Origin: Vicinamibacterales bacterium
Lineage (GTDB): Bacteria; Acidobacteriota; Vicinamibacteria; Vicinamibacterales; UBA8438
Direction: 5' to 3'
Assembly (NCBI GenBank): GCA_965215105.1
Contig: OZ244051.1
Span: 5,073,003-5,137,002, forward strand
DNA length: 64,000 nucleotides
A program made the translations under genes and the position numbers. Numbering within the stretch: the first letter of the stretch is position 1; every line of letters starts with the position of its first letter. Positions 7,634-55,484 of the stretch are shown here, piece by piece. Under the pieces are notes generated by a model. It searched no databases. It saw only the letters and a list, made by a program, of their open reading frames with translations, and had not been told where the DNA came from.

Positions 7634-7935
7634 CCGGAGGCGGCGCGGTTCCACGACGCAGGCGCCCGGCCGCCGGGCGCCCTGAGCCGGTCCCGGGGCG
7701 GTTCGCGCACTCCCCTCTGGAAGGGAGACGAGGGCGCCATGACGGAGTTGCCGCGAGCAAGCGGGTCCCGACCGGCGGAACGAACAGGGGTAACGCGATG
7801 GTGGTCATCGACGCGGTTTCCAAGGAAGCAGGAGGGGCAGCCGCCGCGGAGCCCTGCCGCGGACGGCTGACTCTGATATTATTAAAGGCTGCGTTTTCGC
7901 CCGCGCCGCGAAAACGGGGGCGCACGATCGTACGC

Positions 7936-11903: not shown

Positions 11904-12072
11904 GAGCTTGCGCCGTGGAACGGTGCGGACTCCTGGAGGGCCGTTTGGGCGCCCAGCGGAGCCGCCAGGCGCCGATTGGCGCACCAGGCGCCTGCGTGGT
12001 GGGGCGGTGCGGACTCCTGGAGGGTCGGTTGGACGCCCAGCGGAGCCGCCAAGCGCCGATTGGCGCGCCAAG
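11900..12072 (+). repeat. Two tandem copies of the REP-like repeat; the first begins GTAG and supplies the dctM stop codon
   Basis: 'gtaggagcttgcgccgtggaacggtgcggactcctggagggccgtttgggcgcccagcggagccgccaggcgccgattggcgc' is followed by a second near-copy; it is the reverse complement of the 55269 element. Confidence 0.85.
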
Positions 12073-16750: not shown

Positions 16751-17024
16751 TGTGGAAACTATACCACCGGCCGGGCGGCAGGACGGGTGGGTCGAAGGCG
16801 GTCGGGCGCCTGCCCTGCCGGAGGCCCGCGTCACCCGACCCAGCGCCGCGACCGCTGGCCGGGCCGCGTCGGAGGCGGACTTGGGAAGGGCGGAGACGGC
16901 GGCAATCGACGCCGCGGAGGACCGTTTCCGCCCGCGGCCTCGCGCCGCCGGCGTCTCGTGCCGGCGAGACTCCCAAACGCGAGCGGAGGGATCGCCCCCG
17001 CGCCCGCAGGTCGCGTGGTCGCCC

Positions 17025-17108
17025 GGCCCGCCATCGTCGCCTCGGCTCCGCTTGGCGCCCAAGCAACCCTGCCGGGAGTCTGCACCGTTCTACGGCGCAG
17101 ATTCCTAG
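17025..17108 (-). repeat. REP-like repeat overlapping the TAG stop of the upstream Pro-rich gene
   Basis: Hairpin ggagtctgcaccgt-tct-acggcgcagattcc plus the conserved 50-bp flank shared with 55269. Confidence 0.85.
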
Positions 17109-36669: not shown

Positions 36670-39395
36670 GTGGCTCCGATGCTGGACGATCTGCGCTTCC
36701 GTCTGCGCACCCTGTTCCGGCGGAACGACGTCGAGGACGACCTGGAAGACGAGATGCGCTTCCATCTCGAACGCGCCGCCGAGCAGCACCTGGCCCGCGG
36801 CCTGTCGCCACGGGAAGCGTACCGGCAGGCGCAACTCGCGTTCGGCCGGATCGACTTCGTCAAGGAGGACTGCCGCCGGAGCTGGGGAATCCATCAGCTC
36901 GATGGCCTTCGCCAGGACGGCACGTTCGCGCTGCGGCTGATTCGGAAGCACCCGGCGTTGTCGGCCATCTCGGCCATCTCGCTCGCCATCGGGATCGGCC
37001 TCAACACCGCCCTCTTCGCGCTGCTGGACGCCACGCTGCTGCGGCGGCTGCCGGTCGATCGACCGGAGCAGCTCGTCGACGTCTACACCAGCGAGATCGA
37101 TGGCTTCGCCTGGTACGGCAGCTCGTATCCGGACTATCTGGACCTGCGCCGCGGCGTGCGGGCGCTCAGCGGACTGGTGGGCTACGTGCCCGCGATGGGG
37201 GCGGTGCGAACCGGGGATCGGTCACGGGCGCTGCCCGTCGAGGCGGTGACGGGCAACTACTTTCAGGCGCTCGGCGTCCCGGCGGCTCACGGCCGGGTGT
37301 TGTTGCCGGACGACGACCGTCCCGGCGCGGCGCCGGTCGTGGTCGTCTCGTCGGCGTTCTGGTCCGCTGCTTTCGACCGCGACCCCGGCGCCATGGGACG
37401 GTCTCTCCGCATCGGCGGGCGACGGTACACCATCGTCGGTGTGGCGCCGGAGGGCTTCGCCGGCATGACCGCGCCGATCCTGACACCGGCATTCTGGACG
37501 CCGATGGCCTGGATCGACGACGTCCAGCCGGCGGTGTTGCACACCGGATCGTCCGCCTCGGACGTCTCCATACTCGAGAATCGCGGACGGCGCTGGATGC
37601 TGTTGAAGGGACGACTTCGCGAAGGCGAAACCGCGGCCACCGCCGCCGCCGATCTGAACCGCGTGATGCAGGCGTTGGCAGCGGAGTACCCCGATTCGAA
37701 CGAAGGATTCCGCGCGACGTTGATCCCGACCCGCGACGTGGCGACCCACCCCTTCTTCGAAGATCGCCTGCGCGCGGGGGCGGCCAGTCTGTTCGTGCTG
37801 ATGGGGCTGGTGCTGCTGATCGCCTGTGCGAACGTTGCGGGGCTCCTGCTCGCGCGCGCCGCCGCGCGGCGGCGGGAGATCGGTCTGCGTCTCGCAATCG
37901 GGGCCGGGCGGGGACGGCTGCTGCGTCAACTGCTCGTCGAGAGCATCGTGCTGGCGCTGCTCGGGGCAGCGGGCGGTGTCGCGCTCGCCTGGGGGCTTCT
38001 CCAGGGTCTCGGCGCCGTTCGCGTGCCCCTGCTCCTTCCCATCGCGCTCGACCTTTCGTTGAACGGCCGCGTGCTGGGCATGTCGGCAGCCCTGGCGACA
38101 GGGGCCGGCATCGCGGCCGGCCTGCTGCCGGCGTGGATCGGCACGCGGACGAGCTTGCCGGGCGAGCTGGCGGGGAGCGAACCTGCATGGTCGATCCGCG
38201 GACGCCGTTGGAACCTGGGCCAGGCGCTGGTAGCACTCCAGATCGCCGTCAGCGTCGTGCTGCTCGTCATGGCCGGCCTGCTGGCGCGGAATCTGCGGGC
38301 GTTCAGCCGCATCGAACCCGGTTTTCCGGCGCCGACCATCGCCTCGGTCACCGTCGCCCTGGAACTGATCGGTTACGACGAAGACGAGGCCGCGCAGTTC
38401 TTCGAGCGGGCACGGGAGCGGGTGCGGGCCCTGCCGGGCGTACAGGCGGTCGCCCGTACGAGCCGCGCGCCGCTCGCCATCAACTTCAACCAGGACCCCA
38501 TCGGCCCGGCCGATGGGCAGGCGGCGAATGCGGGAGCCCTTGCTGTCGAGACGGTGACCGTCGGCGAGAGGTACTTCGACGCGCTCGGCGTGCCGATCCT
38601 CGAAGGACGGCGGTTCGACGACGCTGTCGATACGCCCCGGGCGCCGCGGGTGGCGTCAACCAGGCGCTCGCCCGTCGGCTGTGGCCAGGTGTGAGCGCCG
38701 TCGGTCGGCGCCTTCGACCGGGAGGCGCGGACAGCACCCGGCCGGCGGTGGAGGTCGTCGGCGTCGTCCGTGACTACAAGATCCGGTTTCTCCAGGAGCC
38801 GCCCACGCCGTACGTCCACTACGCGGCGTCGCAGCGTCCCGCCGATGTGGTGACCGCGGCGGTGCTGCTTGCGCGCACGGAGGGCGACCCCGCCACGCTG
38901 GGCGCGGCGATGCAGCGGGAGCTGCGCGGACTCGATCCCGAAGTCGTGTTCTATGAAGGTTCGACCCTGCGCGACCACGTAGCGTCGCAGTTGCTGCCCG
39001 CGCGCCTCCTCGCGGCCATTCTCGGCGCGGCGGGCCTGGTCGCCGTCTGGCTTGCCGCCGTCGGCCTGTACGGCGTCATCGCCTACGCGATCGTGCGGCG
39101 AACCCGGGAGATCGGAATCCGCATGGCGCTGGGCGCGACGCGCCGCGATGTGCTCGGGTTCGTCGTCCGCCAGTGCGCCGTCGTCGTGGGTGTCGGTGCC
39201 GTGCTCGGTTCGGTGTCGGCCTTCGTGGCGGCCCGCGCGACGGCCGGCGTGCTGTTCTTCGGCATCGACGCGACGGACGCGCTGGCCTGGGGTGGGGCGA
39301 TCGTCGTGTTGATCGCCGTCGGGGTGGTTGCGCACCTCGCCCCGGCGCTGCGCGCCGTCGGCGTGGCTCCGTCGGTGGCGCTGCGCTTGGAATGA
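36670..39395 (+). pseudogene. ADOP-family (MacB/FtsX-like duplicated) permease with an internal frameshift
   Basis: 'EMRFHLE', 'LAIGIGLNTALF', 'LLIACANVAGLLLAR..RRREIGLRLAIGA'. The frame breaks at about 38655 (gtggcgtcaac, where VAVVNQ is expected) and resumes as 'NQALARRLWPG...RTREIGIRMALGA...ALRLE*'. Confidence 0.85.
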
Positions 39396-41638: not shown

Positions 41639-43120
41639 TCAATCGGTCGCGGCCGGGAAGGGAGGGGAAGGCTCGCGCGGCGCGATCGAGATGTTCGCCC
41701 ACCCGTAGAACGCGGCGACCAGGGGGTTGATGAGGTTGAAGAAGCAGAACGGGGCGTAGGTCAGGGTGGCGACCCCGAGGGCGCCGGCCATGTACGCCCC
41801 GCACGTGTTCCACGGGATCAGCACCGACGTGATCGTGCCCGCGTCCTCCAGGGTCCGCGACAGGTTGCACGGGTCGAGGCGGCGCCGCTCGTACTCGGCG
41901 CGGAACATGCGCCCCGGCAGCACGATGGAGATGTACTGGTCCGAAGCGACCACGTTGGTGCCGAATGCGGTGAGCAGGGTCGCCCAGACGAGGCTCCGCG
42001 CGCTCCGGACCGCGCGCAGGATGCGCCGCGCCACCGCCTCGAGCTGGCCGGTCGACTCCATGACCCCCCCGAACATCATGGCCGACAGGATGAGCCATAT
42101 CGTGGACAGCATGCTGCTCATGCCCCCGCGGCTGAGGAGGTCGTCGAGGGCGGGGTTGCCCGAGTCGAGGGTGAAGCCGTCGAAGAGGGCGATCCAGCAG
42201 CCCTTGACGACGGCGAGGGGCCGCGGCAGGTCGGGCTCGGCCACGAACGCCACCACCGTGTCCGGCTGGAAGAGGGCCGCGAAGACCGCCCCGGCCAGCG
42301 CGCCGGCGAGCAGGGCGGGGAACGCGGGGACGCGGCGCACCACCAGCGCCAGCACCAGGGCCACTGGTATCAGCAGGTGAGGGCCGAGCGCGTACTGGCT
42401 CTCGAGCGCCTGCAGCACGACCTGGAGCTCGGCGGTGTCGGCCGGAGCGGGCGCCAGCAGGCCGGCCGCCGTGAACAGGACCAGCGCCGCCGCGATGCTC
42501 GGCCCCGTGGTCCACACCATGTGGCGGATGTGGGTGAACAGGTCGGTGCCGGCGACGGCGGGGGCGAGGTTGGTGGTGTCGGAGAGGGCCGACATCTTGT
42601 CGCCGAAGTAGGCGCCGGAGATGACCGCGCCCGCCGCCAGGCCCAGGTGCAGCCCCTGCGCCGTCGCGATGCCGACGAGCGCGATGCCAATGGTGCCCGC
42701 GGTGGTCCACGAGCTGCCGGTGGCCACCGAGACGAGGGCGCAGATGACGCAGGCGGTGGCGTAGAACACCGTCGGCGACAGCACCAGCAGCCCGTAGTAG
42801 ATCATCGTCGGGACGACCCCGGCGAGAATCCACGTCCCGATGAGGGCGCCGACCACGAGCAGGATGAGGATGGCCCCCATCGACACCGAGATGCTCCGGC
42901 GCATCCCGTCCTCGACCGCCTTCCACGGATGCCCGTTGCGCAGCCCCACGAGCGCCCCCGCGACGGCGGCGAGCATGAGGGCGATCTGGTTCGGCCCGCT
43001 CGACGACCCGTCCCCGAACAGGTAGACCGAGCCGGCGAGCAGCGTGATCAGCAGGCCGAGCGGCCCCAGCGCCTGCAGGGCGGTGGCGGGTCGTATGGTG
43101 TTGGCGGCGGGATCGGCCAT
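41639..43120 (-). CDS. nhaC: NhaC family Na+/H+ antiporter or amino-acid transporter
   Basis: 'TGSSWTTAGTIG', 'SGAYFGDKMSALSDTTNLA', 'LSRTLEDAGT', 'LIPWNTCG'. Confidence 0.9.
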   Translation of the reverse strand: MADPAANTIRPATALQALGPLGLLITLLAGSVYLFGDGSSSGPNQIALMLAAVAGALVGLRNGHPWKAVEDGMRRSISVSMGAILILLVVGALIGTWILAGVVPTMIYYGLLVLSPTVFYATACVICALVSVATGSSWTTAGTIGIALVGIATAQGLHLGLAAGAVISGAYFGDKMSALSDTTNLAPAVAGTDLFTHIRHMVWTTGPSIAAALVLFTAAGLLAPAPADTAELQVVLQALESQYALGPHLLIPVALVLALVVRRVPAFPALLAGALAGAVFAALFQPDTVVAFVAEPDLPRPLAVVKGCWIALFDGFTLDSGNPALDDLLSRGGMSSMLSTIWLILSAMMFGGVMESTGQLEAVARRILRAVRSARSLVWATLLTAFGTNVVASDQYISIVLPGRMFRAEYERRRLDPCNLSRTLEDAGTITSVLIPWNTCGAYMAGALGVATLTYAPFCFFNLINPLVAAFYGWANISIAPREPSPPFPAATD

Positions 43121-43365
43121 GCGCGTCCAGTCGGGCGCTCATGCTAGCACGCCCCGCGTCACCCGGTTCGGAAACGGGGACAGGCGGCTTCCGTCCCGGC
43201 CAGGGCTGCGGAAGCTGTCCCGCTTCCGTCCCTCGAGCGGCACGTACGTCGACGGCGAGAGGCCGGCGGCATCGGGTGAGGAAAGCTCGCCGCGTTGTCC
43301 GAACCGTCTTCGATGATGATTGATAGCGGTAGGCCGGTTCGGATAACATCCGGGTTCCGACCATC

Positions 43366-43992
43366 TTGAGCCGGAGGCGCGACGCAGTGGATCGGACGAC
43401 GCAGCCTGCTCGGACCTTCCTCCCGACGATCGAGGATGCCGTTGCCTGTCCGCTGCTGGAGGGCCGGCACGAAGCCTGGATCCGGTGCTGCACGGCGCGG
43501 TTCCTGCCTCTCGCCCGCCGCCTTACCGGCAACGATGCGGACGCGCACGATGCGCTGCAGGAGAGCTGGATCGATGTCCTGCACGGCGTACAGCAGTATC
43601 GCGGGGACGCGCCGGCCTGCGCGTGGGTCGGCGCGATAGTGCGGAACGAAGCGCGGCGGCAGGCCCGACATCCCCGGAACGTCCCCATCGGCGACGACGG
43701 CGGCGACGAGCTGGCGCCGGGGCCCGCCACGCCGCCCGCAGTCGGTCCGACTCCGGAAGTCGAAGAACACACACGCCAGATGCTCCGCATCCTGCTGGAG
43801 ATCGTCGACCGGCTGCCGCCGACGTACCGGCAGATAGTCCAGCTTCGCGACATCGAGGAACGGTCGCCCGACGAGGTGGCCGCCCGCCTGCACATCTCCC
43901 GCTCGAACGTCTCGTCGCGCCTGCAGCGGGCGCACGAGCTGCTCCGCCGCAGCCTGCTGCAGCGACTCGGCATGGAGGGGCCGGCCCGGTAG
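43366..43992 (+). CDS. ECF (group 4) RNA polymerase sigma factor
   Basis: Region 2 'DAHDALQESW...WVGAIVRNE' and region 4 'LPPTYRQIVQLRDIEERSPDEVAARLHISRSNVSSRLQRA'. Start uncertain (TTG 43366 or GTG 43387). Confidence 0.85.
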   Translation: MSRRRDAVDRTTQPARTFLPTIEDAVACPLLEGRHEAWIRCCTARFLPLARRLTGNDADAHDALQESWIDVLHGVQQYRGDAPACAWVGAIVRNEARRQARHPRNVPIGDDGGDELAPGPATPPAVGPTPEVEEHTRQMLRILLEIVDRLPPTYRQIVQLRDIEERSPDEVAARLHISRSNVSSRLQRAHELLRRSLLQRLGMEGPAR

Positions 43993-44066
43993 CCGACCCT
44001 GCACGTCCGACGGTCCGGCGCGAGCCTTCGGCCCGCGGCGTCCGGTGACCCGAATCCGGCGACTCC

Positions 44067-44130
44067 AAAAAAAAAAGTCGAAAAAAAACGGAAAAAGGAT
44101 GTGACCGATCCGCCCCTCGGACACTCTATA
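44067..44130 (+). promoter_or_regulatory. A-tract UP-like element and putative ECF promoter upstream of the peptide gene
   Basis: A10 (44067-76), A8 (44081-88) and A5 (44092-96), then GTGACC (44101-06) and ACTCTATA (44123-30). Confidence 0.5.
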
Positions 44131-44267
44131 CAAGTACAGGGCGAGGATCCTGTCGAGGCCGCGGGATAGGGCGGCGAGGCGCTGTTCGCGCGTGCGAGAG
44201 AACGTAGGCAAAACCAGGACCGTGGAGCGTTACGGCCGAATTCGGACCTGATTCAAAGGAGGATGTG

Positions 44268-44528
44268 ATGAAGCCACTTCTGATACGCGTCGTGATCTTG
44301 CTCATCTTGCTCGGCGGCTACGGGTCGCTGCAACCGGCGGAGGTTCAGGGAGAGTGGGGCATCACCTGCTACACCTGCGACGTTACTTGGGACGGTTGGG
44401 CTCGGTGCATGGACACCTATACCCTCCGTGAAGGATGGGACTACTGTGTGGCCGTGACCCAAGATCCGAGTGACCCGCAGCAGAGCTTTTGCCTGCTGGG
44501 CTGGTACTGCCCTTGGACGCAGGTCTGA
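44268..44528 (+). CDS. Small secreted Cys/Trp-rich peptide (86 aa; predicted 58-aa mature part with 6 Cys and 6 Trp)
   Basis: Perfect AAGGAGG SD at 44256-62, a Sec-type signal MKPLLIRVVILLILLGGYGSLQPAEVQG, and mature EWGITCYTCDVTWDGWARCMDTYTLREGWDYCVAVTQDPSDPQQSFCLLGWYCPWTQV. Confidence 0.85.
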   Translation: MKPLLIRVVILLILLGGYGSLQPAEVQGEWGITCYTCDVTWDGWARCMDTYTLREGWDYCVAVTQDPSDPQQSFCLLGWYCPWTQV

Positions 44529-44556
44529 CCAACCTGAAATAAACGGGTGATCACCA

Positions 44557-44589
44557 TCTGCCGGGCCGGCGGGAGTCGGCCCCGGCAGA
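44557..44589 (+). terminator. GC-rich stem-loop after the peptide gene (partial terminator or mRNA stabiliser)
   Basis: tctgccgg-gccggc-ggga-gtcggc-c-ccggcaga; no U-tract follows. Confidence 0.55.
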
Positions 44590-44656
44590 CTGTCCCGAAC
44601 TCGCGGGCTTGCAGCGGGGGGCCTTAGCATCTGGCGTCTGTGGGACGAGGAACATC

Positions 44657-45532
44657 ATGACCAAACGAAAGATAATCGTTCGCTCGCTTGACGTCAGCAT
44701 ACTCATCGTGGTTACGGCGGTTCTACTCGCTTGGACAACCGATGAGTGGAAGTCGAAGGAAAGCGCGGCGATGCGGGCGGTTTCCACGGAGTTGCCGGGC
44801 GGAACAGTTCGCCCGGAGTTGATCCGCCGTGGTGCTCGGGTCGTGTTGCCGAACGTTCAATGGCATGACGGCGTTCGGACCATTGTGTTGCTCGCAAGTG
44901 CGACGTGCCCTGCCTGCAATGACGGCATTGCTTTCTACAAGCATTTGGGGGATTATGTCCGAGATCTACCGGAAATGCGCTTCGTGATTGCCGCGGTGGA
45001 TGACATGGAGACAGTGAAGACCTGGGCGGATACGCACGGCGTTCGACATGACGTCGTCGTCGAGATGAGAGACGCGATTTCACACGGATTCACGCTCACT
45101 CCCACGCTGCTGGTGATGGACGATGACGGAGTGGTGACAGACGTCCTTCTGGGTCGCCTGTCGAAGTTTGAGGAATCGATGCTATGGGGCCGTTTGCGGC
45201 GGCCGCGTTCTGTCGCGCCGTTGAGCAACGCGCGCTATCCTGAGGAGATTGGCGGCGCGGAATTCCGAGACCTGGTGTCGAGGAACCGCGAGCGCCTTGT
45301 CGTCATAGATGTGCGCAGTCGCTCCGAGTATCGGCCAAGGCGGATCGGCCAAGGCGCGATCAACATTCCCCTTGACGAACTCGCGATTCGGGGGCCGGTC
45401 GAGTTGCTCGGGCGGTCGATCCCCGATACGGTCGTAGTGGACTGCACCGTGATACATTGGGCGCAGTGTCGCCGAGCGGGACGGATCCTGGAACACATTG
45501 GCGTCGAGAATCCGTCGTTGCTCCTGCCATGA
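44657..45532 (+). CDS. Membrane-anchored thioredoxin-like (CPAC) / rhodanese fusion protein
   Basis: N-terminal TM, 'TIVLLASATCPAC', cis-Pro 'TPTLLV'; rhodanese 'VIDVRSRSEY', 'GAINIPLDEL', 'VVVDCTVIHWAQC'. Confidence 0.8.
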   Translation: MTKRKIIVRSLDVSILIVVTAVLLAWTTDEWKSKESAAMRAVSTELPGGTVRPELIRRGARVVLPNVQWHDGVRTIVLLASATCPACNDGIAFYKHLGDYVRDLPEMRFVIAAVDDMETVKTWADTHGVRHDVVVEMRDAISHGFTLTPTLLVMDDDGVVTDVLLGRLSKFEESMLWGRLRRPRSVAPLSNARYPEEIGGAEFRDLVSRNRERLVVIDVRSRSEYRPRRIGQGAINIPLDELAIRGPVELLGRSIPDTVVVDCTVIHWAQCRRAGRILEHIGVENPSLLLP

Positions 45533-45544
45533 GGTGAGGCGGAG

Positions 45545-47986
45545 ATGGATATTGGCGGAGGCGGGTTGCATCACAGGCGGTCCGTCGGGCGCCGCATGCG
45601 ATCACTGCTTGCAGACGTGCCGTTCGCGCTGCGGCGATTCTGGCGGCGCGGGTCCTTTCCCGGCGTGTTGGTGGCGCTGGGGCTGGGCGTCGGGGCGAAC
45701 GGCGCGACGCTGACGCTGGCCGCGGCGCTGCTGGTGACGGCTCCCGACTACGTTCAGGATCCGCAACGACTCGTGGTGGTGCCGTCGATTAGGTCGTACG
45801 CTGAGTACAAGAGCGTCAGCCGCCGTGCGAAGACAATAGACCTCGCCGCCGTCACGCGGGTCGATCTGAGTCTTGGCGTCGGCCGGGATGCGGACAGGGT
45901 CAGCGTCGAGTGCGTGACGTGGCGGTACTTCGATCTTTTTCCGGTACGTCCGATGTTGGGCCGCGGGTTCGAGAAGTCGGACGAGATTCGGCACGCTGCG
46001 TTGCCGGTCGTGCTGTCTCACGGTTCCTGGGTCCGTCGTTTCGGTGCTGACCCGGAGGCGGTTGGGCGTACCGTCATCCTAGGTGATCGCGGTCACGTCG
46101 TTGTCGGAGTCGCGCCGCGAGGGTTCAAGGGGATCGAGTCGGCCGCGACGGACGCCTGGATTCTTCTCGCGGTTTCGTCGCCCCTGTGCTCGTTCACGGG
46201 AGCGGACCTGCTCGAGGCCGCGGACGCCGCTTGGCTGCGGACGGTTGGACGGGTTCGCGACGGCTTCCCCATCAATGCCGCGGCGGGGGAATTGGCGTTA
46301 CTGGGGTCGGGTACGCGGGGTGACGGGGGAACGTCTGGTGCAGGAGGGAGCGGCCGCAGCCTGGTGGCGGCCTACGGTTCCTGGCGCAGTCGGGTGCTCA
46401 GTGGCGCGGTGGCGCTCTGGCTTGCAGGGGCGGGCGGTCTGATTCTGCTTGGAGCTTGGCTGAACGTGGCGGTCCTACTGTCGATCCAGGCGCTCGACCG
46501 TGCCCACGAGTTCGCTGTGCGGGCGCAGCTCGGGGCGACGCGGCCGCGGATTTTCTTCCAGTTCATGCTGGAGCAGATTGCCGCAACGGGTACGTGCGCC
46601 GTGGCGGCGGCGGGCGTCGGCATCGCAGTCGGGCGACTGGTGGTCGGGCTGCTGCCGGTCGGCAATATGGACGGGTTCATGCAAGCCGGGTTCTTCCGGC
46701 TCGTCGGTGCGCTGACGCTTTTGGCGGGCGTGTCGAGCGGATTGGGGCCAGCGGTCTGGGTCTCGCGCATGGCGGCGATATCGCGTCCGCATGGCGGCGG
46801 GCTCGCGGAGCCGTCGGGAGCGGGACTTCGTAGCGGACTCGTGACCGCGCAGTTCGCGCTGGCGCTGGTGCTCGTGGTAGGGACCGGTCTCTTCGTCGGC
46901 ACGGTAAGGCACCTTGGCCGGACGCCGGGCATCGACGCAGACCGCGTCGTCGTCGCGACCGTCGATCTGGCCAGGGTCGGCTACGACGCCGAGCAGGTCC
47001 GGGATGTCTTCGAGACGTTTCTCCGGCGCCTTGATCGGGTGCCCCAGGTCGCTTCCACCGGCGTCAGCTTGGCGCCGCTCCTCGGATCCGGCGCTTTGAC
47101 CCGCGCGTTTCCGCTGCGAACCGCGCGTGGCGTCGCCCCGGCGAGGGTTCCGTTGTTCAATGCGGTGTCGCAGGACTACTTCCATACCGTCGGCACCAGG
47201 ATCCTGCGCGGCCGCGCGTTCGTGGACGGCGATACCGGCGGGCCGCCGGTGATGGTGATGAACGCCGGCCTCGCGGAGCAGTTGTGGGGCGTGTCGGACG
47301 CACTTGGCCGGTGCGTCGTCGTCGGTGGAATGTCGTGCGTCGAGATAGTCGGCATCAGCGAGGATCGACGGCACGTGTCTGTGACCGGGGTGCACGACGA
47401 GTTGTTCGTTCCATTGAACCAGGCGTCGCTGTACATCGACGGCGCGGCGCCCCGGACACTGGTGGTGCGTGCCCGCGGTGCCGGGCGCGCGGCCGTCGGC
47501 CCGGTCGCCACGGCGCTGCGCGGCTCCGATGCGGATCTGCCGTTCATAGATGTCCGGTTGCTGGCGGATCTTGTCGACGATCAGACGCGATCGTGGCGAC
47601 TTGGGGCCACCGTCTTCAGCCTGCTGGGCAGCTTCGCCCTCCTGCTCGCCGCCATCGGGAGCTTCGCCGCTCTATCCTTGTCGGTGCGTTCGCGCACCCG
47701 GGAGCTCGGCGTTCGGATGGCGCTCGGCGCGCGTCGCCGCGACATTTTCGCGGCAGTGATGCGCCGCGGGATGGGGGTCGTGATCGCGGGACTCGTCATT
47801 GGTGTCGCCGTCTCCGCCGCGACCTATCGTCTGATGGACAGTCTGCTCGTCGGCGTCACGGCGGCCGATCCCGCGTCCTTCGGAATCGCTTGTCTGGTGG
47901 TCTTCGGCGGGGGTGTGGCCGCTACGGTGGCGCCGGCGGTCAGAGCGGCGCGCCTGGATGCTGCAGGAGTGTGTACCGATGTCTGA
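45545..47986 (+). CDS. MacB/FtsX-like duplicated ABC permease (ADOP-like), no adjacent ATPase
   Basis: 'LGLGVGANGA', 'EFAVRAQLGA', 'LVTAQFALALVLVVGTGLF', 'RTRELGVRMALGA', 'PAVRAARLD'. Start 45545 or 45596. Confidence 0.88.
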   Translation: MDIGGGGLHHRRSVGRRMRSLLADVPFALRRFWRRGSFPGVLVALGLGVGANGATLTLAAALLVTAPDYVQDPQRLVVVPSIRSYAEYKSVSRRAKTIDLAAVTRVDLSLGVGRDADRVSVECVTWRYFDLFPVRPMLGRGFEKSDEIRHAALPVVLSHGSWVRRFGADPEAVGRTVILGDRGHVVVGVAPRGFKGIESAATDAWILLAVSSPLCSFTGADLLEAADAAWLRTVGRVRDGFPINAAAGELALLGSGTRGDGGTSGAGGSGRSLVAAYGSWRSRVLSGAVALWLAGAGGLILLGAWLNVAVLLSIQALDRAHEFAVRAQLGATRPRIFFQFMLEQIAATGTCAVAAAGVGIAVGRLVVGLLPVGNMDGFMQAGFFRLVGALTLLAGVSSGLGPAVWVSRMAAISRPHGGGLAEPSGAGLRSGLVTAQFALALVLVVGTGLFVGTVRHLGRTPGIDADRVVVATVDLARVGYDAEQVRDVFETFLRRLDRVPQVASTGVSLAPLLGSGALTRAFPLRTARGVAPARVPLFNAVSQDYFHTVGTRILRGRAFVDGDTGGPPVMVMNAGLAEQLWGVSDALGRCVVVGGMSCVEIVGISEDRRHVSVTGVHDELFVPLNQASLYIDGAAPRTLVVRARGAGRAAVGPVATALRGSDADLPFIDVRLLADLVDDQTRSWRLGATVFSLLGSFALLLAAIGSFAALSLSVRSRTRELGVRMALGARRRDIFAAVMRRGMGVVIAGLVIGVAVSAATYRLMDSLLVGVTAADPASFGIACLVVFGGGVAATVAPAVRAARLDAAGVCTDV

Positions 47987-48719
47987 ACGGATGGGCTTTG
48001 GAGGCCTGCTGGTCGTGCTACTGAGCGGCGCATGTGACCGGGCTGCGATCAGCCCGGGTGAGAACTCGCTTCCGGTGGACACCACCCATCAGGCTGCGAT
48101 CGAGAGTCTCGCCGCCCGGAAACCGTTTCCAGGCTACCCTGCCCGGTCTCTGGAGAACGGCGCCGCGGGTGTCGCCGTGGCTTCGATCCTGATCGGTTCC
48201 GACGGTCGGATGGAACGGGTCGAAGTACTCGAGGCGCCGGATGCGGACATCGCCGAAGCCGTGCGGAACGCCCTCGGGCGTTGGGTGTTGCCGCAGCGCC
48301 TCTTCGAGGGCAACCCTCGCGGCCCGTTCAAGGTCGCGTCCACGATGGTGTTCTATTTTCTCATCGAGGCCGGGGAAGGTCGCGTCGTGAGCGGGCCGAT
48401 TCTGGCGGCGGAACGCGTCGCCGACCACTCCGCGGCTGGTGAGCTCCGCCGCATCGACGAAGCGGAGTTCAAGGCGTTGCTGGAGACGGGTGACGTAGTC
48501 GTCGTCGATCCGCGCGAACGCGAGCTCTATGCGCGCGGTCACCGGGAGGGCGCGATCAACGTCCCGGTCGAGGAACTGGACTCGCGGGCGGCCGTGGAGC
48601 TTTCGGCGGCCCGGGTCGTCGTCGTCGACTGCTACCGCAGTTCGGGATCGATGTGCGATGTGGCGGGGCGGATACTGCGGCTCGTCGGGTCGGACGTCGC
48701 GGTCTTCGTTCACGACTGA
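47979..48719 (+). CDS. Probable lipoprotein: TonB C-terminal domain fused to rhodanese
   Basis: AGGAG RBS, 'LLSGAC' lipobox-like; TonB-C 'PGYPARSLENGAAGVAVASILIGSDGRMERVEVL...AVRNALGRW'; rhodanese 'VVDPRERELYARGHREGAINVP', 'VVDCYRSSGSMC'. Confidence 0.8.
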   Translation: MSERMGFGGLLVVLLSGACDRAAISPGENSLPVDTTHQAAIESLAARKPFPGYPARSLENGAAGVAVASILIGSDGRMERVEVLEAPDADIAEAVRNALGRWVLPQRLFEGNPRGPFKVASTMVFYFLIEAGEGRVVSGPILAAERVADHSAAGELRRIDEAEFKALLETGDVVVVDPRERELYARGHREGAINVPVEELDSRAAVELSAARVVVVDCYRSSGSMCDVAGRILRLVGSDVAVFVHD

Positions 48720-48953
48720 GCGGTCGACGGACGTGGCCGGGCGAGCGGCGGCGCCGCCCGACCTGCTCCGCGTCGCCGCACCACCAGGACGCGCAGGGCG
48801 CGTTGCCCCCCCGGCGGACTGGCAGGATTCCCGCTTCCCGGTCTGGCGTCACGTGCCCCGGCTGGGCGCGGGCGGCCATGGGAATCGCGGGATGCAGCCG
48901 GTTGATGCAGGCGGGGTCGGTGCGGCGCGGGGCTTCTCCTTCGGCGCGCCGGG

Positions 48954-51782
48954 TCAGGCTCGGGCGCCTTGCAGCCCGCCGGCGTCCCCGCCGGTCTCGG
49001 TGCGGCGCGGGGTCTCGCCGCCGGCCTGCGTGGTTCGGGGCGCCGGTGGCGCCGCGGTATCGACGGGCGGCGCCGCCCGTGCGCCGAGCGGCGCTGCCGC
49101 CCGCGCGGGCGGCGCCGGGGCCGGGACGGAGCCGGTTTCCTGCGCGGGCGCGCCCGGCTGCCGGCCCTCGTCCGCCGTCGGCGCGTCCGGCAGCGGCAGC
49201 AGGTCCAGCGTGGCCGCGGTGTCCGCGACGGCGGCGTCGACGGCCGCGACGGCGCGCGCCGACTGCCGCAGGGTGCGCGCGGCCCAGGCCGCCAGCAGCC
49301 CGGCGGCGCCGGCGATCCACGGCCAGTACGGGGCCGGGCCGGCGGCGGCGCCGGCGATCGCTCCCCCGGCGAGGCACGCGCCCAGGAGCCACAGCTTGGG
49401 GGTGGGCCGCAGCCGCCGGGCGACGCGGACGAGGCAGCGTCCCCCGCGATGCTCCTCGACGAGCACCCGCAGGTGCAGCCGCGCCCACCGGTTCAGGCCG
49501 ACGCTGATGTCGCGGTCCGCCTGCCAGCCGTCGTCTATCTCGACCGCCCGCACCCCGCGCGTCCGCTCGAGCCGGGCCGTCAGGTGACTGAGCAGCGCTT
49601 CTCCCGCGATCCAGGTCTCGCTCCAGTAGCGCCGGGGCGGGGTGCGGCGCGACGCGCCGGCCCACAGGTCCCGCACCGCGCCGGCCGGCGCCGCCGGGGC
49701 GCGTCGTCCGTTCGCCGGAGCGCGAACGACCTCGGGCGGGGACATCGCGCCTCGCAGTCGGCCCCACGCCCGGGCGAGGGGCTGGACGAAGTACAGCGAC
49801 GCGATGCGCGACCGGTAGAGGATGCGGCTCAGGCGGCGCGGGCGGCGGACCAGCGGCGGCAGGCGCTCGATGTCGGTGACGAGCGCGTAGCGGACGCAGC
49901 GGGCGACGGTGGTGCCGAGGGCGCCCGCGCCCACCGCCAGCAGCGCGAGGGCCAACCCGATCTGGTTCGTCGCCAGGGTCGCCCCGCCGAGCCCGATCAG
50001 GGCGGCGGCGGCGACCTGCCAGCGGGCCGAGTGAGGCATGAAGGCGAACGGATAGGTGTCGATGGTGTAGACCGACGGGAACGGCGCGGCGCCCCACGTG
50101 CCGCTGTTGACGCGGGCCCGGGTCAGCGAGCGGTGGAAGGGCAGGGGGCCGTAGATGCGCCCGCGCCAGCCGATGTGCAGCCCCTGGAACTGGTCGGGGT
50201 GGTGCGGCTTGAGCCACGACTCGCCCTCGCCGTAGCCGACCTGCTGGCGCCAGTAGGCGCGCAGCGACGCGCGGTGGCGGTGCCAGACGAGGGCGGACGG
50301 CGCGAACCCGACCTTCCAGCCGCGCGCCTGGAGGCGCCAGCAGATGTCGACGTCGTCGCCGGCGCGCAGGTAGATGGGGTTGAACCCGCCGACGGCGAGC
50401 AGGGCGTCGCGGCGGAACGCCATGTTGCAGCCGGGCACGTGCTCGGCGACGCGGTCGTCGAGCATGACCTGGGTGGGGCTGCCGGGCGCGCGCGCGATGC
50501 ACTGGGCCATCGGGGGGTCGTCGGCGGGGACGAGGTTGGGGCCGCCCGCGCCGACGACGTCCGAGGTCAGGAACGGCCGGACGAGGTGCGTGAGCCAGTC
50601 GGGGTCGACGCGCACGTCGCCGTCGGTATAGGCGACGATCTCGCCGGCGGCGTGCTCGAGCCCGACGTTGCGGGCCGCGCTCAGCCCGCCGTTGGGGATG
50701 TCGAGCACGGTGGCCGACGCGTGGCGGCGGGCGATGGCGCCGGTGTCGTCGCGCGACCCGTCGTTGACGACGATGATCTCGAAGTGGGGATAGCTCAGGT
50801 TCTCGATGGACGTGAGGCACTCGTCGATGGTGGCGGCCTCGTTGTAGGCGCACACCACGACCGAGATCTTCGGCCACGTCCGCCGCTCCGCCTCGGGGAA
50901 CGGCGCGTCCTCGAAAGCGCGAACGACCGCGCCGAGGGCCGGCTTGGGCCTGCGCGCCGTGTCCACGAGGCCGAACGCCCAGTCGTCGACCCGCCGCCCG
51001 CCCCGCCACCACTCGTCGGTCCACGCGAACACCACGGCCCCGCACGCCCCCTCGGAGAACGCGGTTCGGACGTGCATGGCGGCGATGGCGGCCTGGCCGT
51101 CCTCGCCCTCGCGCCGGCTGTCGGCCCCCGCCTCGGCGAGGAGCAGCGGGCGGTGTCCCGCCAGGTGCTGCAGCCGGGCGAGGTAGCGCCGCAGGTCCGC
51201 TTCCTCGTGCAGGTAGACGTTGAACGCGCAGACGTCGAGGAAGGGCAGCGACAGGTACTCGGTCGGCGGATAGTTCACGTAGGTCAGGAGGGCGTGGGGC
51301 GCCGCCGCCTTCACGTCGTGGTAGAGCTCGCGCAGGAAGCGCTCGACGCGGGCCTGCCCGTGCCAGCGGACGACGGGGGCGGGAATCTCGTTGCCGAGCG
51401 CGAAGACGAGGGCGGCGGGGTGGTCGGACAGCTCGCGCACTCGCGCGATGACGTCGCCGCGGACGCGGCGGCAGAGGTCGGGGTCGTCGAGGAACGCGAC
51501 GTGCTGCGGCCAGGGCAGGCCGATCATCATGCGCAGCCCGTGACGCGCGGCTTCGTCGAGCACCCGGGGAGGGGGCACGGTGTAGGTGCGGACGGTATTG
51601 AGGCCCGCTTCCCGCATCCGCGCGAAGTCCGCCGAGACAACGTCGGCCGCGGGAAACTGGTCGCCCGCCGCGTCGGGTGCGAAGGTGCCGTAAGAGACGC
51701 CCTTCACGAGAAACCGATCGCGCCCCAGCGACAGGAACTTGCCGTCGACGGCGGCTCGCGTCTCGGGGACCGGGGTAGTCAT
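48954..51782 (-). CDS. Fusion of a clan GH-A-like TIM barrel and a GT2 glycosyltransferase with C-terminal TMs
   Basis: 'KGVSYGTF', 'NTVRTY', 'GNEIP', 'LAEAG'; GT2 'SVVVCAYNE', 'VNDGSRD', 'YTDGD', 'GDDVD', 'QQVGYG'. Start set at the most downstream repeated Met; the frame is open to 52037. Confidence 0.88.
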   Translation of the reverse strand: MTTPVPETRAAVDGKFLSLGRDRFLVKGVSYGTFAPDAAGDQFPAADVVSADFARMREAGLNTVRTYTVPPPRVLDEAARHGLRMMIGLPWPQHVAFLDDPDLCRRVRGDVIARVRELSDHPAALVFALGNEIPAPVVRWHGQARVERFLRELYHDVKAAAPHALLTYVNYPPTEYLSLPFLDVCAFNVYLHEEADLRRYLARLQHLAGHRPLLLAEAGADSRREGEDGQAAIAAMHVRTAFSEGACGAVVFAWTDEWWRGGRRVDDWAFGLVDTARRPKPALGAVVRAFEDAPFPEAERRTWPKISVVVCAYNEAATIDECLTSIENLSYPHFEIIVVNDGSRDDTGAIARRHASATVLDIPNGGLSAARNVGLEHAAGEIVAYTDGDVRVDPDWLTHLVRPFLTSDVVGAGGPNLVPADDPPMAQCIARAPGSPTQVMLDDRVAEHVPGCNMAFRRDALLAVGGFNPIYLRAGDDVDICWRLQARGWKVGFAPSALVWHRHRASLRAYWRQQVGYGEGESWLKPHHPDQFQGLHIGWRGRIYGPLPFHRSLTRARVNSGTWGAAPFPSVYTIDTYPFAFMPHSARWQVAAAALIGLGGATLATNQIGLALALLAVGAGALGTTVARCVRYALVTDIERLPPLVRRPRRLSRILYRSRIASLYFVQPLARAWGRLRGAMSPPEVVRAPANGRRAPAAPAGAVRDLWAGASRRTPPRRYWSETWIAGEALLSHLTARLERTRGVRAVEIDDGWQADRDISVGLNRWARLHLRVLVEEHRGGRCLVRVARRLRPTPKLWLLGACLAGGAIAGAAAGPAPYWPWIAGAAGLLAAWAARTLRQSARAVAAVDAAVADTAATLDLLPLPDAPTADEGRQPGAPAQETGSVPAPAPPARAAAPLGARAAPPVDTAAPPAPRTTQAGGETPRRTETGGDAGGLQGARA

Positions 51783-51965
51783 TGGGGAGAATACGGACGT
51801 GGCGCCGGTCCCCTCGCGCCCGAGCGACAGGGACCTGCCGTCGACGGCGGCTCGCGTCCCGGGGACCGCGGTAGTCATCAAGGGCAGTACGGGCGTGGCG
51901 CCGGTCCCTTCGTGCCCGAGCGACAGGAACTCGCCGTCGACGGCGGCTCGCGTCGTGGGGACCGC
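51721..51965 (-). repeat. 96-bp tandem repeat (~2.5 copies) duplicating the 5' end of the GH-GT2 gene
   Basis: 'TRAAVDG(E/R/K)(F/S)LSLG' occurs three times; Met codons at 51878 and 51782 are 96 bp apart. Confidence 0.88.
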
Positions 51966-52046
51966 GTCGTCCTTGCGGACGACGCGGGGGCGCCGGGTCC
52001 CCGCCGGCCGGGGCGCGCCGGCGCCCCGCGGCGTCACGCGCGTCCT

Positions 52047-55268: not shown

Positions 55269-55357
55269 CTAGCCCGCCAATCGTCGCCTGCGGCTCCGCT
55301 TGGCGCCCAACCAACCCTGCCAGGAGTCTGCACCGTTCTTACGGCGCAGACTCCTGG
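55269..55357 (-). repeat. Best-preserved copy of the ~88-bp REP-like repeat
   Basis: ctagcccgccaatcgtcgcctgcggctccgcttggcgcccaaccaaccctgccaggagtctgcaccgttcttacggcgcagactcctgg; terminal hairpin at 55323-55354. Confidence 0.88.
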
Positions 55358-55484
55358 CACGTTCCTTTCATGGACGTGGATGAATACCCCTGCTTGCGGG
55401 GCAGGGTGGCGGCCGGAGCGGGTGCGTGTGCCGGTTCGGCTGTGCAATACTGGCGGGTACCCGCCGTGAAGGGATGGTGACGCA

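What the first reader, a model, noticed from the sequence alone, without database searches (positions are those of the whole stretch)
43366..48719. Candidate undescribed ECF-controlled secreted Cys/Trp-rich peptide system with thioredoxin-rhodanese, orphan permease and TonB-C-rhodanese
Seen in the sequence: five co-oriented genes inserted between nhaC and the GH-GT2 gene, most with visibly more A/T-ending codons than the flanks. They are an ECF sigma factor, an 86-aa secreted peptide with a perfect SD, a TM-anchored thioredoxin (CPAC)-rhodanese fusion, a MacB/FtsX-type permease and a TonB-C-rhodanese lipoprotein. A stem-loop follows the peptide gene, and the last two genes overlap. Established: precursor, hairpin, maturation enzymes, transporter is the usual layout of RiPP and peptide-export clusters, and ECF-driven secreted Cys peptides occur in metal-stress RiPPs such as bufferins. 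Here no MNIO/DUF692, radical SAM, YcaO, lanthionine synthetase or C39 peptidase is present. Inference: a periplasmic thiol-chemistry assembly line that folds or sulfur-modifies a disulfide-rich peptide, for metal buffering, signalling or antagonism. I do not recognise this gene set as a described system.
Basis: partly seen in the sequence, partly recalled or inferred. Interest (0 to 1): 0.88.

Follow-up and report, generated by a model that had tools for sequence, protein, structure and literature searches.

The report
Cysteine-rich secreted peptide with thioredoxin-rhodanese cassette
A small, horizontally acquired gene island encodes a secreted six-cysteine mini-protein next to its own membrane-anchored thioredoxin-rhodanese enzyme, a permease and a TonB-like protein; the same undescribed cassette recurs in distantly related soil-type bacteria, so it is a real system of unknown role.

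Summary
Five co-oriented genes with low third-codon-position GC (GC3) lie at 43366-48719: an ECF sigma factor, an 86-aa signal-peptide/6-Cys/6-Trp peptide with a strong ribosome-binding site, a TM-anchored CPAC thioredoxin-rhodanese, an ADOP/MacB-type permease and a TonB_C-rhodanese. A hairpin follows the peptide gene, and the last two genes overlap by 8 nt.

The island replaced an acetamidase/formamidase gene. It is found in this species and, in decayed form, in 1 of 21 congeners.

The gene set is not a chance neighbourhood. Of 12 loci elsewhere that hold a Trx-rhodanese homologue at 25-32% identity, 11 also carry one to three signal-peptide, CxxC-first, 6-8-Cys small ORFs. That is 18 ORFs where about 0.1 is expected. 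TonB_C and a cassette-specific ADOP clade recur with them; the ECF sigma does not.

The thioredoxin is TlpA/ResA-like. Both rhodanese domains have an unusual C-X7-C loop, and its cysteines are lost in two divergent cassettes.

Best reading: a dedicated periplasmic system that folds and handles a disulfide-rich secreted mini-protein, probably for antagonism or signalling. Function, redox direction and expression are untested. No description was found in print.

The parts
43320..43349 (+). Sigma-70-like promoter match (TTGATA-18-TAACAT) ahead of the sigma gene.
   Evidence: It is a consensus match only: 1 found against 0.5 expected.
43366..43992 (+). ECF-type sigma factor. The ORF opens at TTG 43366. 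The likelier start is GTG 43387, 9 nt after GGAGG. No anti-sigma gene lies beside it.
   Evidence: Sigma70_r2 E 5.5e-9; r4_2 E 7.4e-14; TIGR02937 75 bits against a cut-off of 42.9.
44067..44096 (+). Three A-tracts (A10, A8, A5), unusual in a roughly 71% GC genome, about 170-200 nt upstream of the peptide gene.
   Evidence: In the contigs of another public run the A10 tract is 2 nt shorter. Role unknown.
44199..44224 (+). Weak ECF-like promoter candidate (AGAAC-N17-CGTG), about 45 nt before the peptide start.
   Evidence: Pattern match only. My rough estimate of chance is about 0.2 matches per region. This is a lead, not a finding.
44255..44263 (+). Ribosome-binding site AAAGGAGGA of the peptide gene.
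44268..44528 (+). Precursor of an 86-aa secreted mini-protein. It has a signal peptide of about 26 residues. The mature part is about 60 residues with 6 Cys, 6 Trp and net charge -6. Cys framework: C-x2-C-x9-C-x12-C-x14-C-x5-C.
   Evidence: There are 11 homologous sequences with six invariant Cys. The AF2 model has mean pLDDT 72.6 and four beta strands.
44557..44589 (+). G+C-rich stem-loop after the peptide gene, with no T tail. Possibly an attenuator or RNA-stability element.
44657..45532 (+). Membrane-anchored periplasmic thioredoxin-fold (CPAC, cis-Pro) fused to a rhodanese-like domain. The rhodanese loop is C-X7-C, with its first Cys at the canonical catalytic position.
45545..47986 (+). 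Duplicated MacB/FtsX-type permease of the ADOP kind, with no ATPase domain. The likelier start is ATG 45596.
47979..48719 (+). TonB_C domain fused to a rhodanese-like domain (C-X7-C), with a signal or lipoprotein-type N-terminus. It overlaps the permease gene by 8 nt.
48854..48918 (-). 65-bp remnant of the 5' part of an acetamidase/formamidase gene. The island displaced that gene.

Best explanation
This is a horizontally acquired envelope cassette built around a Sec-exported, Cys-rich mini-protein.

Proposed mechanism. Every step is inferred except where marked:

1. The local ECF sigma factor switches the operon on.
2. The strong ribosome-binding site and the downstream hairpin favour an excess of precursor.
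3. The Sec system exports the precursor and signal peptidase I removes the signal peptide.
4. The membrane-anchored TlpA/ResA-like thioredoxin (CPAC), fused to a rhodanese-like C-X7-C domain, acts on the peptide's six cysteines. Most likely it forms and shuffles three disulfides, with the rhodanese cysteines as the oxidising or relay partner.
5. The translationally coupled ADOP permease and TonB_C protein then handle the folded peptide in the periplasm, either expelling it or protecting the producer.

The likeliest role is antagonism or signalling between bacteria.

Shown here: the gene anatomy, the conservation of the peptide family, the tight genomic linkage of peptide with Trx-rhodanese, and a cassette-specific permease clade.
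For: **The peptide is a real gene family.**
- There are 11 other sequences. All share six invariant Cys and the G-[WFY]-A-x-C, GW-x-x-C and C-x5-C motifs.
- The signal-peptide part is more conserved (70% mean pairwise identity) than the mature part (54%, or 49% without Cys).

**Linkage with Trx-rhodanese.**
- A fixed filter was used: signal peptide, at least 6 Cys after it, and a CxxC motif. It finds 5 ORFs in the whole 6.9-Mb genome, one of them this gene.
- The same filter finds 18 such ORFs in the 131.9 kb of 12 other Trx-rhodanese loci, and 11 of the 12 loci have at least one. About 0.1 is expected.
- It finds 1 in 13 loci with a rhodanese-less Trx paralogue.
- In the protein database, 6 peptide homologues sit on contigs of exactly the same length as 6 Trx-rhodanese homologues.

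**Recurrence of the other parts.**
- TonB_C is present in 7 of the 12 loci.
- ADOP is present in 5 of the 8 loci that have enough flanking sequence.

**The permease travels with the cassette.**
- The island's ADOP scores 120-310 bits against cassette ADOPs of other families.
- It scores only 75 bits against the best of 69 ADOP matches in its own genome.

**Enzyme features.**
- The CxxC motif and the cis-Pro are invariant in 17 aligned Trx-rhodanese proteins.
- Nearest solved folds are ResA, CcmG, StoA and FetE (Foldseek E 1e-7 to 1e-5).

**Precedents from papers.**
- Review passages read (PMC5985334) describe the route Sec, then DsbA, then MacAB-TolC for enterotoxin STII.
- A review passage read (PMC5403849) says the rhodanese PspE together with DsbC partly replaces DsbA/DsbB.
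- Passages read (PMC10783030) say that TlpA-like folds can act as oxidases.

**Pointers to an accessory, antagonism-like role.**
- Distribution is patchy: full-length Trx-rhodanese in about 8 of 401 genomes of the order.
- GC3 is low.
- Tandem peptide paralogues occur, two or three per locus.
- One cassette has a dedicated S26 signal peptidase.
- A sister species retains intact permease and TonB_C genes, with dN/dS 0.29 and 0.34, after losing the peptide and Trx.
Against: - No expression data exist: no RNA run holds the stretch.
- The redox direction is open. The nearest structural relatives are mostly reductants. The host has both a DsbA/VKOR pathway and a CcdA/DsbD pathway.
- The mature peptides are anionic, with net charge -1 to -6. 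That is unlike most membrane-active antimicrobial peptides.
- The permease has no ATPase, no adaptor and no outer-membrane duct gene beside it.
- ADOP is missing from 3 of 8 adequately flanked cassettes, so export or immunity by it cannot be universal.
- The peptide fold matched nothing in the PDB (0 hits at E<=0.001).
- Antagonism is inferred from evolutionary pattern only.
Confidence: 0.5

Rival explanations
1. Periplasmic thiol or metal(loid) stress buffer. The anionic CxxC-first peptides would bind or scavenge a metal, metalloid or oxidant. The TlpA-like thioredoxin would keep them reduced with electrons from CcdA/DsbD. The rhodanese domains would detoxify or transfer sulfur, and the permease would remove the loaded peptide.
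For: - The nearest folds are reducing oxidoreductases such as ResA, CcmG and StoA.
- The host has a DsbD/CcdA-type protein.
- An ECF sigma, typical of envelope-stress regulons, drives this copy.
- The peptides are acidic and Cys-rich.
- Bufferins are recalled as an analogy; nothing on them was read here.
Against: - None of the cassettes examined contains a metal transporter, metal sensor or CcdA gene.
- The regulators differ between cassettes.
- Patchy, strain-level distribution and tandem, fast-diverging peptide paralogues fit a housekeeping stress buffer poorly.
Confidence: 0.2
2. Sulfur-modifying assembly line. The two rhodanese domains would load sulfane sulfur onto the peptide's cysteines, as persulfide, trisulfide or polysulfide bridges, giving a new kind of modified peptide.
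For: - Two rhodanese-like domains have a Cys at the canonical catalytic position.
- The C-X7-C pair is kept in 9 of 10 diverse Trx-rhodanese proteins and in 4 of 4 TonB_C-rhodanese proteins.
Against: - Two cassettes (L028 and L096) have no Cys in the rhodanese domain yet keep the peptide, Trx and TonB_C. L096 also has CxxS in place of CxxC.
- The TonB_C partner has no rhodanese domain in L028, L053, L055 and L096.
- The active-site loop is longer than in known sulfurtransferases.
- No sulfur-donor genes are linked.
Confidence: 0.12
3. Signal or regulatory ligand. The secreted peptide would be sensed at the envelope by the permease/TonB_C pair, in the way BceAB or FtsEX transmit signals mechanically, and would feed back on gene expression rather than being exported as an effector.
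For: - MacB-type permeases can act as sensors and activators rather than transporters (review passages read).
- The permease and TonB_C genes are translationally coupled.
- Both are retained without the peptide in a sister species.
Against: - No kinase or anti-sigma partner is conserved in the cassettes.
- ADOP is absent from several cassettes.
Confidence: 0.1
4. Chance neighbourhood. The small ORF would be non-coding and the five genes unrelated.
For: The genome is high in GC and produces many spurious ORFs. No family in Pfam or NCBIfam matches the peptide.
Against: - The family has invariant Cys.
- The enrichment next to Trx-rhodanese homologues is about 180-fold.
- Synteny is shared across families of the order and phylum.
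Confidence: 0.03

Closest known systems
Secretion route of E. coli heat-stable enterotoxin STII: Sec, then DsbA, then MacAB-TolC (review PMC5985334, passages read)
   Same: - A small Cys-rich protein with a Sec signal peptide.
- Disulfides are made in the periplasm by a thioredoxin-fold enzyme.
- A MacB-architecture permease then acts from the periplasmic side.
   Different: - Here the oxidoreductase is dedicated, TlpA-like and fused to rhodanese.
- The permease is a duplicated ADOP without an ATPase.
- No MacA-type adaptor or TolC-type duct is linked.
- A TonB_C protein takes part.
PspE (periplasmic rhodanese) plus DsbC partly replacing DsbA/DsbB. Seen only as one review passage (PMC5403849); the original paper by Chng et al. 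2012 was not read.
   Same: A rhodanese cysteine and a thioredoxin-fold CxxC protein together make disulfides in the periplasm.
   Different: - Here the two are one membrane-anchored polypeptide.
- The rhodanese loop carries two cysteines (C-X7-C).
- Activity is untested.
TlpA/ResA/CcmG/StoA/FetE membrane-anchored extracytoplasmic thiol-disulfide oxidoreductases
   Same: - N-terminal anchor.
- Thioredoxin fold without a DsbA-type helical insert.
- CxxC and cis-Pro.
   Different: - A C-terminal rhodanese-like domain is fused.
- The substrate is apparently a co-encoded mini-protein, not cytochromes, copper centres or spore proteins.
- The Pfam Redoxin score is below its cut-off.
Campylobacter fetMP-fetABCDEF (PMC10783030, abstract and passages read)
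   Same: ABC-type permease genes are clustered with membrane-associated thioredoxins of the same fold. FetE is among the top structural neighbours.
   Different: - The Fet cluster has an ATPase, an iron permease and no Cys-rich peptide gene.
- It has no rhodanese and no TonB_C.
ADOP family (TIGR03434), duplicated orphan permeases
   Same: Full-length match to positions 1-796 of 803. Two MacB_PCD and two FtsX modules, with no ATPase.
   Different: - The score of 487.7 is below the curated cut-off of 622.3.
- The protein belongs to a separate clade that travels with the cassette.
Bufferin-type and other Cys-peptide RiPP clusters (recalled; nothing read here)
   Same: Signal-peptide-bearing Cys-rich small proteins, sometimes under ECF control.
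   Different: No MNIO/DUF692, DUF2063, radical-SAM, YcaO or lanthionine-synthetase domain was found in the five genes.

Membership tests
ECF sigma factor (sigma-70 group 4) | Regions 2 and 4 only. | tested here: met
   Sigma70_r2, r4_2 and TIGR02937 all score above their cut-offs.
ECF sigma factor (sigma-70 group 4) | A cognate anti-sigma factor encoded alongside. | tested here: not met
   No such domain is found in the five genes. The Trx-rhodanese has only about 10 cytoplasmic residues.
TlpA/ResA-like thiol-disulfide oxidoreductase | Thioredoxin fold with CxxC and cis-Pro, anchored outside the cytoplasm. | tested here: met
   - C84, C87 and P149 are invariant in 17 sequences.
- The AF2 model has pLDDT 84 and an N-terminal helix at residues 3-39.
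- Foldseek: ResA E 5e-7, with TM-score 0.68 normalised by target length.
- The Pfam Redoxin score is only 20.6 against a cut-off of 26.6.
TlpA/ResA-like thiol-disulfide oxidoreductase | Redox direction and electron partner (CcdA/DsbD for reductants). | not testable with these tools
   The host has DsbA-like, VKOR and DsbD_TM genes elsewhere and no DsbB. None of them is linked to the cassette.
Rhodanese (PF00581) sulfurtransferase | Rhodanese fold with a Cys at the start of the active-site loop. | tested here: met
   - The TonB_C-linked domain scores 28.6 bits against a cut-off of 22.2.
- The Trx-linked domain scores 19.3 bits, below the cut-off.
- The first Cys aligns with the catalytic Cys of 1yt8.
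Rhodanese (PF00581) sulfurtransferase | A short active-site loop of about six residues ending in Arg or Thr. The definition is recalled. | tested here: not met
   The loop is C-X7-C-R in both proteins. The cysteines are absent in L028 and L096.
MacB-type (type VII) ABC transporter | FtsX four-helix module with a periplasmic core domain. | tested here: met
   MacB_PCD x2 (E 1.4e-22) and FtsX x2 (E 1e-14).
MacB-type (type VII) ABC transporter | A fused or adjacent ATPase, and for efflux pumps an adaptor and an outer-membrane duct. | tested here: not met
   None is found among the five genes or the immediate flanks.
ADOP (TIGR03434) | Score above the curated cut-off. | tested here: not met
   The score is 487.7 against a cut-off of 622.3, although the alignment is full length. 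About 30 other copies in the genome pass the cut-off.
TonB energy transducer | The C-terminal TonB_C domain. | tested here: met
   PF03544 scores 29.2 against a cut-off of 24.6.
TonB energy transducer | An N-terminal anchor that couples to ExbBD, followed by a Pro-rich spacer. The definition is recalled. | tested here: not met
   A short signal or lipoprotein-type N-terminus is followed directly by TonB_C and then rhodanese. ExbB/D linkage was not examined.
RiPP or bufferin-type biosynthetic cluster | A dedicated modifying enzyme (MNIO, radical SAM, YcaO, LanM or similar) and a leader-dependent protease or exporter. | tested here: not met
   No such family is found in the five products. The precursor carries a Sec-type signal peptide.
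Sec-dependent bacteriocin with immunity | Killing activity and a specific immunity function. | not testable with these tools
   Only indirect evidence exists: patchy distribution, tandem paralogues, and retention of the permease and TonB_C in a sister species.

The most novel reading that the evidence does not exclude
This may be a previously unrecognised class of Sec-exported, CxxC-first, disulfide-rich mini-proteins. A fused thioredoxin-rhodanese would mature them using rhodanese cysteines as the oxidant or sulfur relay. That would be a DsbA/DsbB-independent folding catalyst, possibly installing persulfide or trisulfide links. An ATPase-less MacB-type permease with a TonB_C partner would then pass the product on, giving a new envelope route for peptide release or self-protection in a poorly studied soil phylum.
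Probability: 0.25. Interest if true: 0.85.

Novelty: new variant of a known kind. Interest (0 to 1): 0.66.

Why it matters
- It defines a recurrent, undescribed cassette with several new families of small secreted disulfide-rich proteins. The host phylum has very little characterised secreted chemistry or peptide biology.
- It offers a natural fusion in which to test whether rhodanese cysteines can drive or relay periplasmic disulfide formation.
- It gives the first specific genomic context for one clade of ADOP 'orphan' permeases. This genome has 69 ADOP matches and their function is unknown.
- If the peptides are antagonistic or are signals, they are a new scaffold: about 50-60 residues, three or four disulfides, Trp-rich and anionic.

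Tried and rejected
**Searches that found no relative of the peptide**
- Pattern scans with the 2-sequence peptide alignment found none in genome contigs or metagenome contigs.
- In 40 relatives only chance-level hits appeared, with E >= 0.06.

**Weak or empty hits**
- The genome-contig scan with the Trx-rhodanese alignment gave one weak hit, L027, covering 35 residues. It was not followed up.
- No tRNA lies in 43000-49200.
- The only Rfam hit is 'drum' at 43968-44096: 23.4 bits against a gathering score of 43, E 0.38. I treat it as chance.
- The terminator scan found no canonical terminator on the + strand.
- A Foldseek search of the PDB with the peptide model gave 0 matches at E<=0.001.
- The ESM Atlas gave a top score of 0.80, which is a lead only.

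**Tests without a usable result**
- Complex prediction of TonB_C-rhodanese (residues 25-246) with the peptide (residues 21-86) returned 'no answer': score 0.01 against a mark of 0.32. This is no evidence either way.
- No RNA holder is listed for the stretch.
- The laid contigs of four runs show the same island, near-identical, in a second study. They offer no diverged copy for a selection test.

**Ideas dropped**
- I considered citing SdbA as a direct precedent for a bacteriocin-folding oxidase. The passages read say its effect on bacteriocin production is indirect, through CiaRH, so I dropped it.
- A shared promoter motif between the sigma and peptide upstream regions was sought. There is no shared 8-mer, only loose AAC-N-CGT matches.

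The contigs of the 14 ENA/Logan Trx-rhodanese homologues therefore could not be read, and only contig-length coincidences are available for them.
- Supplementary files of papers were not consulted because they are closed.

Full report
**1. Anatomy**

The window has about 71% GC. On the + strand between nhaC (41639-43120, - strand) and a GH/GT2 gene (48954-52037, - strand) lie five co-oriented genes.

- ECF sigma factor, 43366/43387-43992: Sigma70_r2 and r4_2, TIGR02937.
- 86-aa ORF, 44268-44528: no family.
- Trx-rhodanese, 44657-45532, 291 aa: weak Redoxin and Rhodanese matches, a CPAC motif and an N-terminal helix.
- Permease, 45545/45596-47986: two MacB_PCD and two FtsX modules. It matches TIGR03434 (ADOP) over its full length at 487.7 bits, against a cut-off of 622.3.
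- TonB_C-rhodanese, 47979-48719: both domains score above their cut-offs.

The peptide gene has AAAGGAGGA 5 nt before its ATG. A 14-bp G+C-rich stem without a T tail follows it. The permease gene and the last gene overlap by 8 nt.

GC3 is 0.70-0.86 in the five genes against 0.95-0.97 in the flanking genes. GC dips to about 0.60 over the peptide and Trx genes.

**2. Origin of the island**

All 20 other genus members with an nhaC orthologue were compared, out of 21 searched.

- In 10 of the 20, a 65-bp stretch matching window 48854-48918 at 88-95% identity lies 1.1-1.3 kb from nhaC.
- In G021 that stretch is the 5' part of a 436-aa acetamidase/formamidase gene (FmdA_AmdA, E 1e-75).
- In G010, nhaC directly abuts GH/GT2.

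So the island replaced the amidase gene and left a 65-bp stub.

Only one congener, G011, has related genes at the same site.

- After nhaC comes a 173-bp remnant of the 3' end of the Trx-rhodanese gene. It is 73% identical in DNA, and the protein-level match contains two in-frame TGA stops.
- Intact permease and TonB_C-rhodanese genes follow, at 72% and 71% amino-acid identity.
- The sigma gene, the peptide gene and the 5' part of the Trx gene are gone.

Between the two species dN/dS is 0.29 for the permease and 0.34 for TonB_C-rhodanese, against 0.22 for nhaC. The two retained genes therefore look functional without the peptide.

Contigs of a second, independent study carry the same island nearly letter for letter. 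One of the few differences is a 2-nt change in the length of the A10 tract upstream of the peptide gene.

**3. The peptide is a gene family**

- A word-indexed search of 5.8 billion proteins found one homologue at 66% identity.
- A full HMMER search of 1.84 billion cluster representatives, using a 2-sequence profile, found three.
- A profile of eight sequences found nine proteins, including the query.
- With cluster members added, 12 sequences could be aligned.

The alignment shows six invariant Cys, an invariant P-A at the end of the signal peptide, and the motifs G-[WFY]-A-x-C, G-W-x-x-C and C-x5-C.

Mean pairwise identity is 70% in the signal-peptide part and 54% in the mature part, or 49% without Cys. 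All mature parts are net anionic (-1 to -6), and 10 of the 12 hold 6-9 Trp.

AF2 gives mean pLDDT 72.6, with block means of 72-91 over most of the mature part, and four short strands. Foldseek found no PDB match at E<=0.001.

**4. The cassette recurs**

*Protein-database evidence.* The Trx-rhodanese has 14 homologues at 49-67% identity, all from metagenome-type sources. Six of them sit on contigs whose lengths equal those of contigs carrying a peptide homologue: 13401, 4410, 1992, 5265767, 4545 and 72967 bp. This is indirect evidence, because the contigs themselves could not be fetched.

*Loci examined.* More distant members at 25-32% identity came from three sources, giving 12 loci in all:

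- a metagenome scan (L028, L029);
- a profile search of 401 genomes of the order, in which 17 genomes hit at E<=1e-8 and about 8 held a full-length match;
- a profile search of 401 genomes of the phylum.

*Fixed filter.* The filter required:

- an ORF of 55-130 aa;
- a K or R near the N-terminus;
- a hydrophobic stretch of at least 10 residues;
- at least 6 Cys and a CxxC motif after that stretch.

It finds 5 ORFs in the whole 6.9-Mb genome, one of them the peptide. In the 131.9 kb of the 12 loci it finds 18, against about 0.1 expected, and 11 of the 12 loci have at least one. The exception, G201, has an IS-type insertion in the 5' end of its Trx gene and a truncated permease.

Three of the 12 loci come from unpublished genomes (G313, G334, G456). 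Without them the count is 8 of 9.

*Position and kind of the small ORFs.* They lie directly upstream of the Trx-rhodanese in L028, L029, L052, L053, L056, L057 and L079. In L051 and L096 they lie upstream of the TonB_C gene, and in L054 they lie after it. Several loci have two or three tandem paralogues. Two frameworks recur:

- a 6-Cys type that opens with C-x2-C;
- an 8-Cys type that opens with C-x2-C-x2-C and contains a CC pair.

*Contrast with Trx-only paralogues.* Thirteen loci hold a rhodanese-less Trx paralogue. The fixed filter found such an ORF in 1 of them; a looser filter found 3.

*The other components.*

- TonB_C proteins accompany the pair in 7 of the 12 loci, or 5 of 9 without the unpublished genomes.
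- ADOP permeases accompany it in 5 of the 8 loci with enough flanking sequence.
- The island's permease scores 120-310 bits against these cassette permeases, but only 75 bits against the best of 69 ADOP matches in its own genome. The permease therefore travels with the cassette.
- Regulators vary: an unrelated ECF sigma in G050, a Crp-type protein in G255, and none seen elsewhere.
- One cassette (G299) has a signal peptidase I gene immediately after the Trx-rhodanese gene.

**5. The enzymes**

- In 17 aligned Trx-rhodanese proteins the CxxC motif (CPAC, CSAC, CAAC, CPSC or CTYC) and the cis-Pro are invariant.
- The AF2 model has pLDDT 84. It shows an N-terminal helix, a disordered linker, a thioredoxin fold and a rhodanese fold.
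- The nearest solved structures are ResA, CcmG, StoA, FetE and similar TlpA-like proteins (Foldseek E 1e-7 to 1e-5). A sequence profile also hits single-domain rhodaneses including PspE.
- The first rhodanese Cys aligns with the catalytic Cys of a thiosulfate sulfurtransferase. However, the loop is C-X7-C-R, longer than in the sulfurtransferases it aligns to.
- The same C-X7-C loop is present in all four TonB_C-rhodanese proteins.
- Two divergent cassettes lack these cysteines. One of them also has CxxS in place of CxxC, yet both keep the peptide, Trx and TonB_C.
- The host also has DsbA-like, VKOR and DsbD/CcdA-type genes elsewhere and no DsbB match. Context therefore does not settle the redox direction.

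**6. Interpretation**

Firmly shown: the conserved core is one or more secreted CxxC-first Cys-rich mini-proteins together with a membrane-anchored Trx-rhodanese. TonB_C and a dedicated ADOP clade are frequent partners.

Inferred: the Trx-rhodanese acts on the peptide's cysteines. I favour disulfide formation or isomerisation for three reasons.

- The Cys frameworks are invariant, which points to structural disulfides.
- TlpA-like folds can act as oxidases (passages of PMC10783030).
- A rhodanese plus a Trx-fold protein can make disulfides in E. coli (one review passage, PMC5403849).

The permease/TonB_C pair would then act on the folded peptide from the periplasmic side. This follows the analogy of MacB-type mechanotransmission and of STII export (passages of PMC5985334).

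An accessory role in antagonism or signalling fits several observations:

- the patchy, island-like distribution;
- the tandem, diverging peptide paralogues;
- a conserved signal part with a variable mature part;
- survival of the permease and TonB_C genes in a species that lost the peptide.

Against this reading:

- the peptides are anionic;
- there is no linked ATPase, adaptor or outer-membrane duct;
- several cassettes lack the permease;
- there are no expression data.

The rivals are a thiol or metal buffer, sulfur modification, signalling, and chance. They are weighed in their own sections of this report.

**7. Comparison with print**

Four full-text searches found no description of this gene set or of a Trx-rhodanese, TonB_C-rhodanese and ADOP combination:

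- 'duplicated orphan permease';
- rhodanese, thioredoxin, periplasmic and cysteine-rich peptide;
- ADOP, Acidobacteria and FtsX;
- disulfide-rich, secreted peptide, thioredoxin, gene cluster and Acidobacteria.

I did not determine the organism. The many ADOP copies and one weak Atlas lead suggest an Acidobacteriota-like phylum, which is inference only.

Noticed in passing
Own genome outside the window: G000:C1 about 3319486-3325183 (L095:3487-9183, - strand): A second, related locus with GC3 of 0.68-0.71, lower than its surroundings. In order it holds:

- a 76-aa signal-peptide ORF with 8 Cys;
- a TM-anchored Trx-only paralogue (Redoxin 24 bits);
- a 305-aa signal-peptide protein ending in ..LRYGF, which is outer-membrane-barrel-like by eye but has no Pfam hit;
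- an ADOP permease.
   Followed up: partly
Window 48854-48918: A 65-bp remnant of an acetamidase/formamidase (FmdA_AmdA) gene. The gene is intact at this site in at least 10 of 20 congeners, so the stub marks the island's insertion or replacement scar.
   Followed up: yes
Window 44067-44096: Three A-tracts (A10, A8, A5) in a roughly 71% GC genome, upstream of the peptide gene. In the contigs of another public run the A10 tract is 2 nt shorter. This may be promoter spacing or curvature, phase variation, or a homopolymer sequencing error.
   Followed up: no
Window about 36907-39392 (+): Another ADOP-family permease just upstream of the MFS gene. It matches the model in two adjacent pieces (positions 1-562 and 564-803). 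It is either frameshifted or split.
   Followed up: no
Window 7479-7634, 11902-12068, 17023-17115 and 55269-55361, plus loci L060, L066, L067 and L068 next to nhaC: A dispersed repeat of about 90-170 bp at 72-90% identity. Copies lie in the window and, often in tandem, in the nhaC-proximal intergenic region of several congeners. It looks like a REP or MITE element.
   Followed up: no
L095:9374-10093 (+), beside the second locus in the own genome: A gene matching the Druantia protein DruA (PF14236, E 4e-49) lies divergently next to the second Cys-peptide/Trx locus.
   Followed up: no
L057:2587-3237 (-), genome G299: A signal peptidase I (Peptidase_S26, E 5e-26) is encoded immediately after the Trx-rhodanese gene. 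That cassette has three tandem Cys-rich peptide genes. This hints at dedicated processing.
   Followed up: partly
L050:6692-7974 (+), genome G201: Two overlapping transposase-like ORFs sit in the 5' end of the Trx-rhodanese gene, and a repeated element of about 35 residues in translation flanks it several times. This cassette is decayed.
   Followed up: partly
Whole genome G000: There are 69 matches to the ADOP model, about 30 of them above the curated cut-off. This is a very large paralogous family whose function is unknown.
   Followed up: partly
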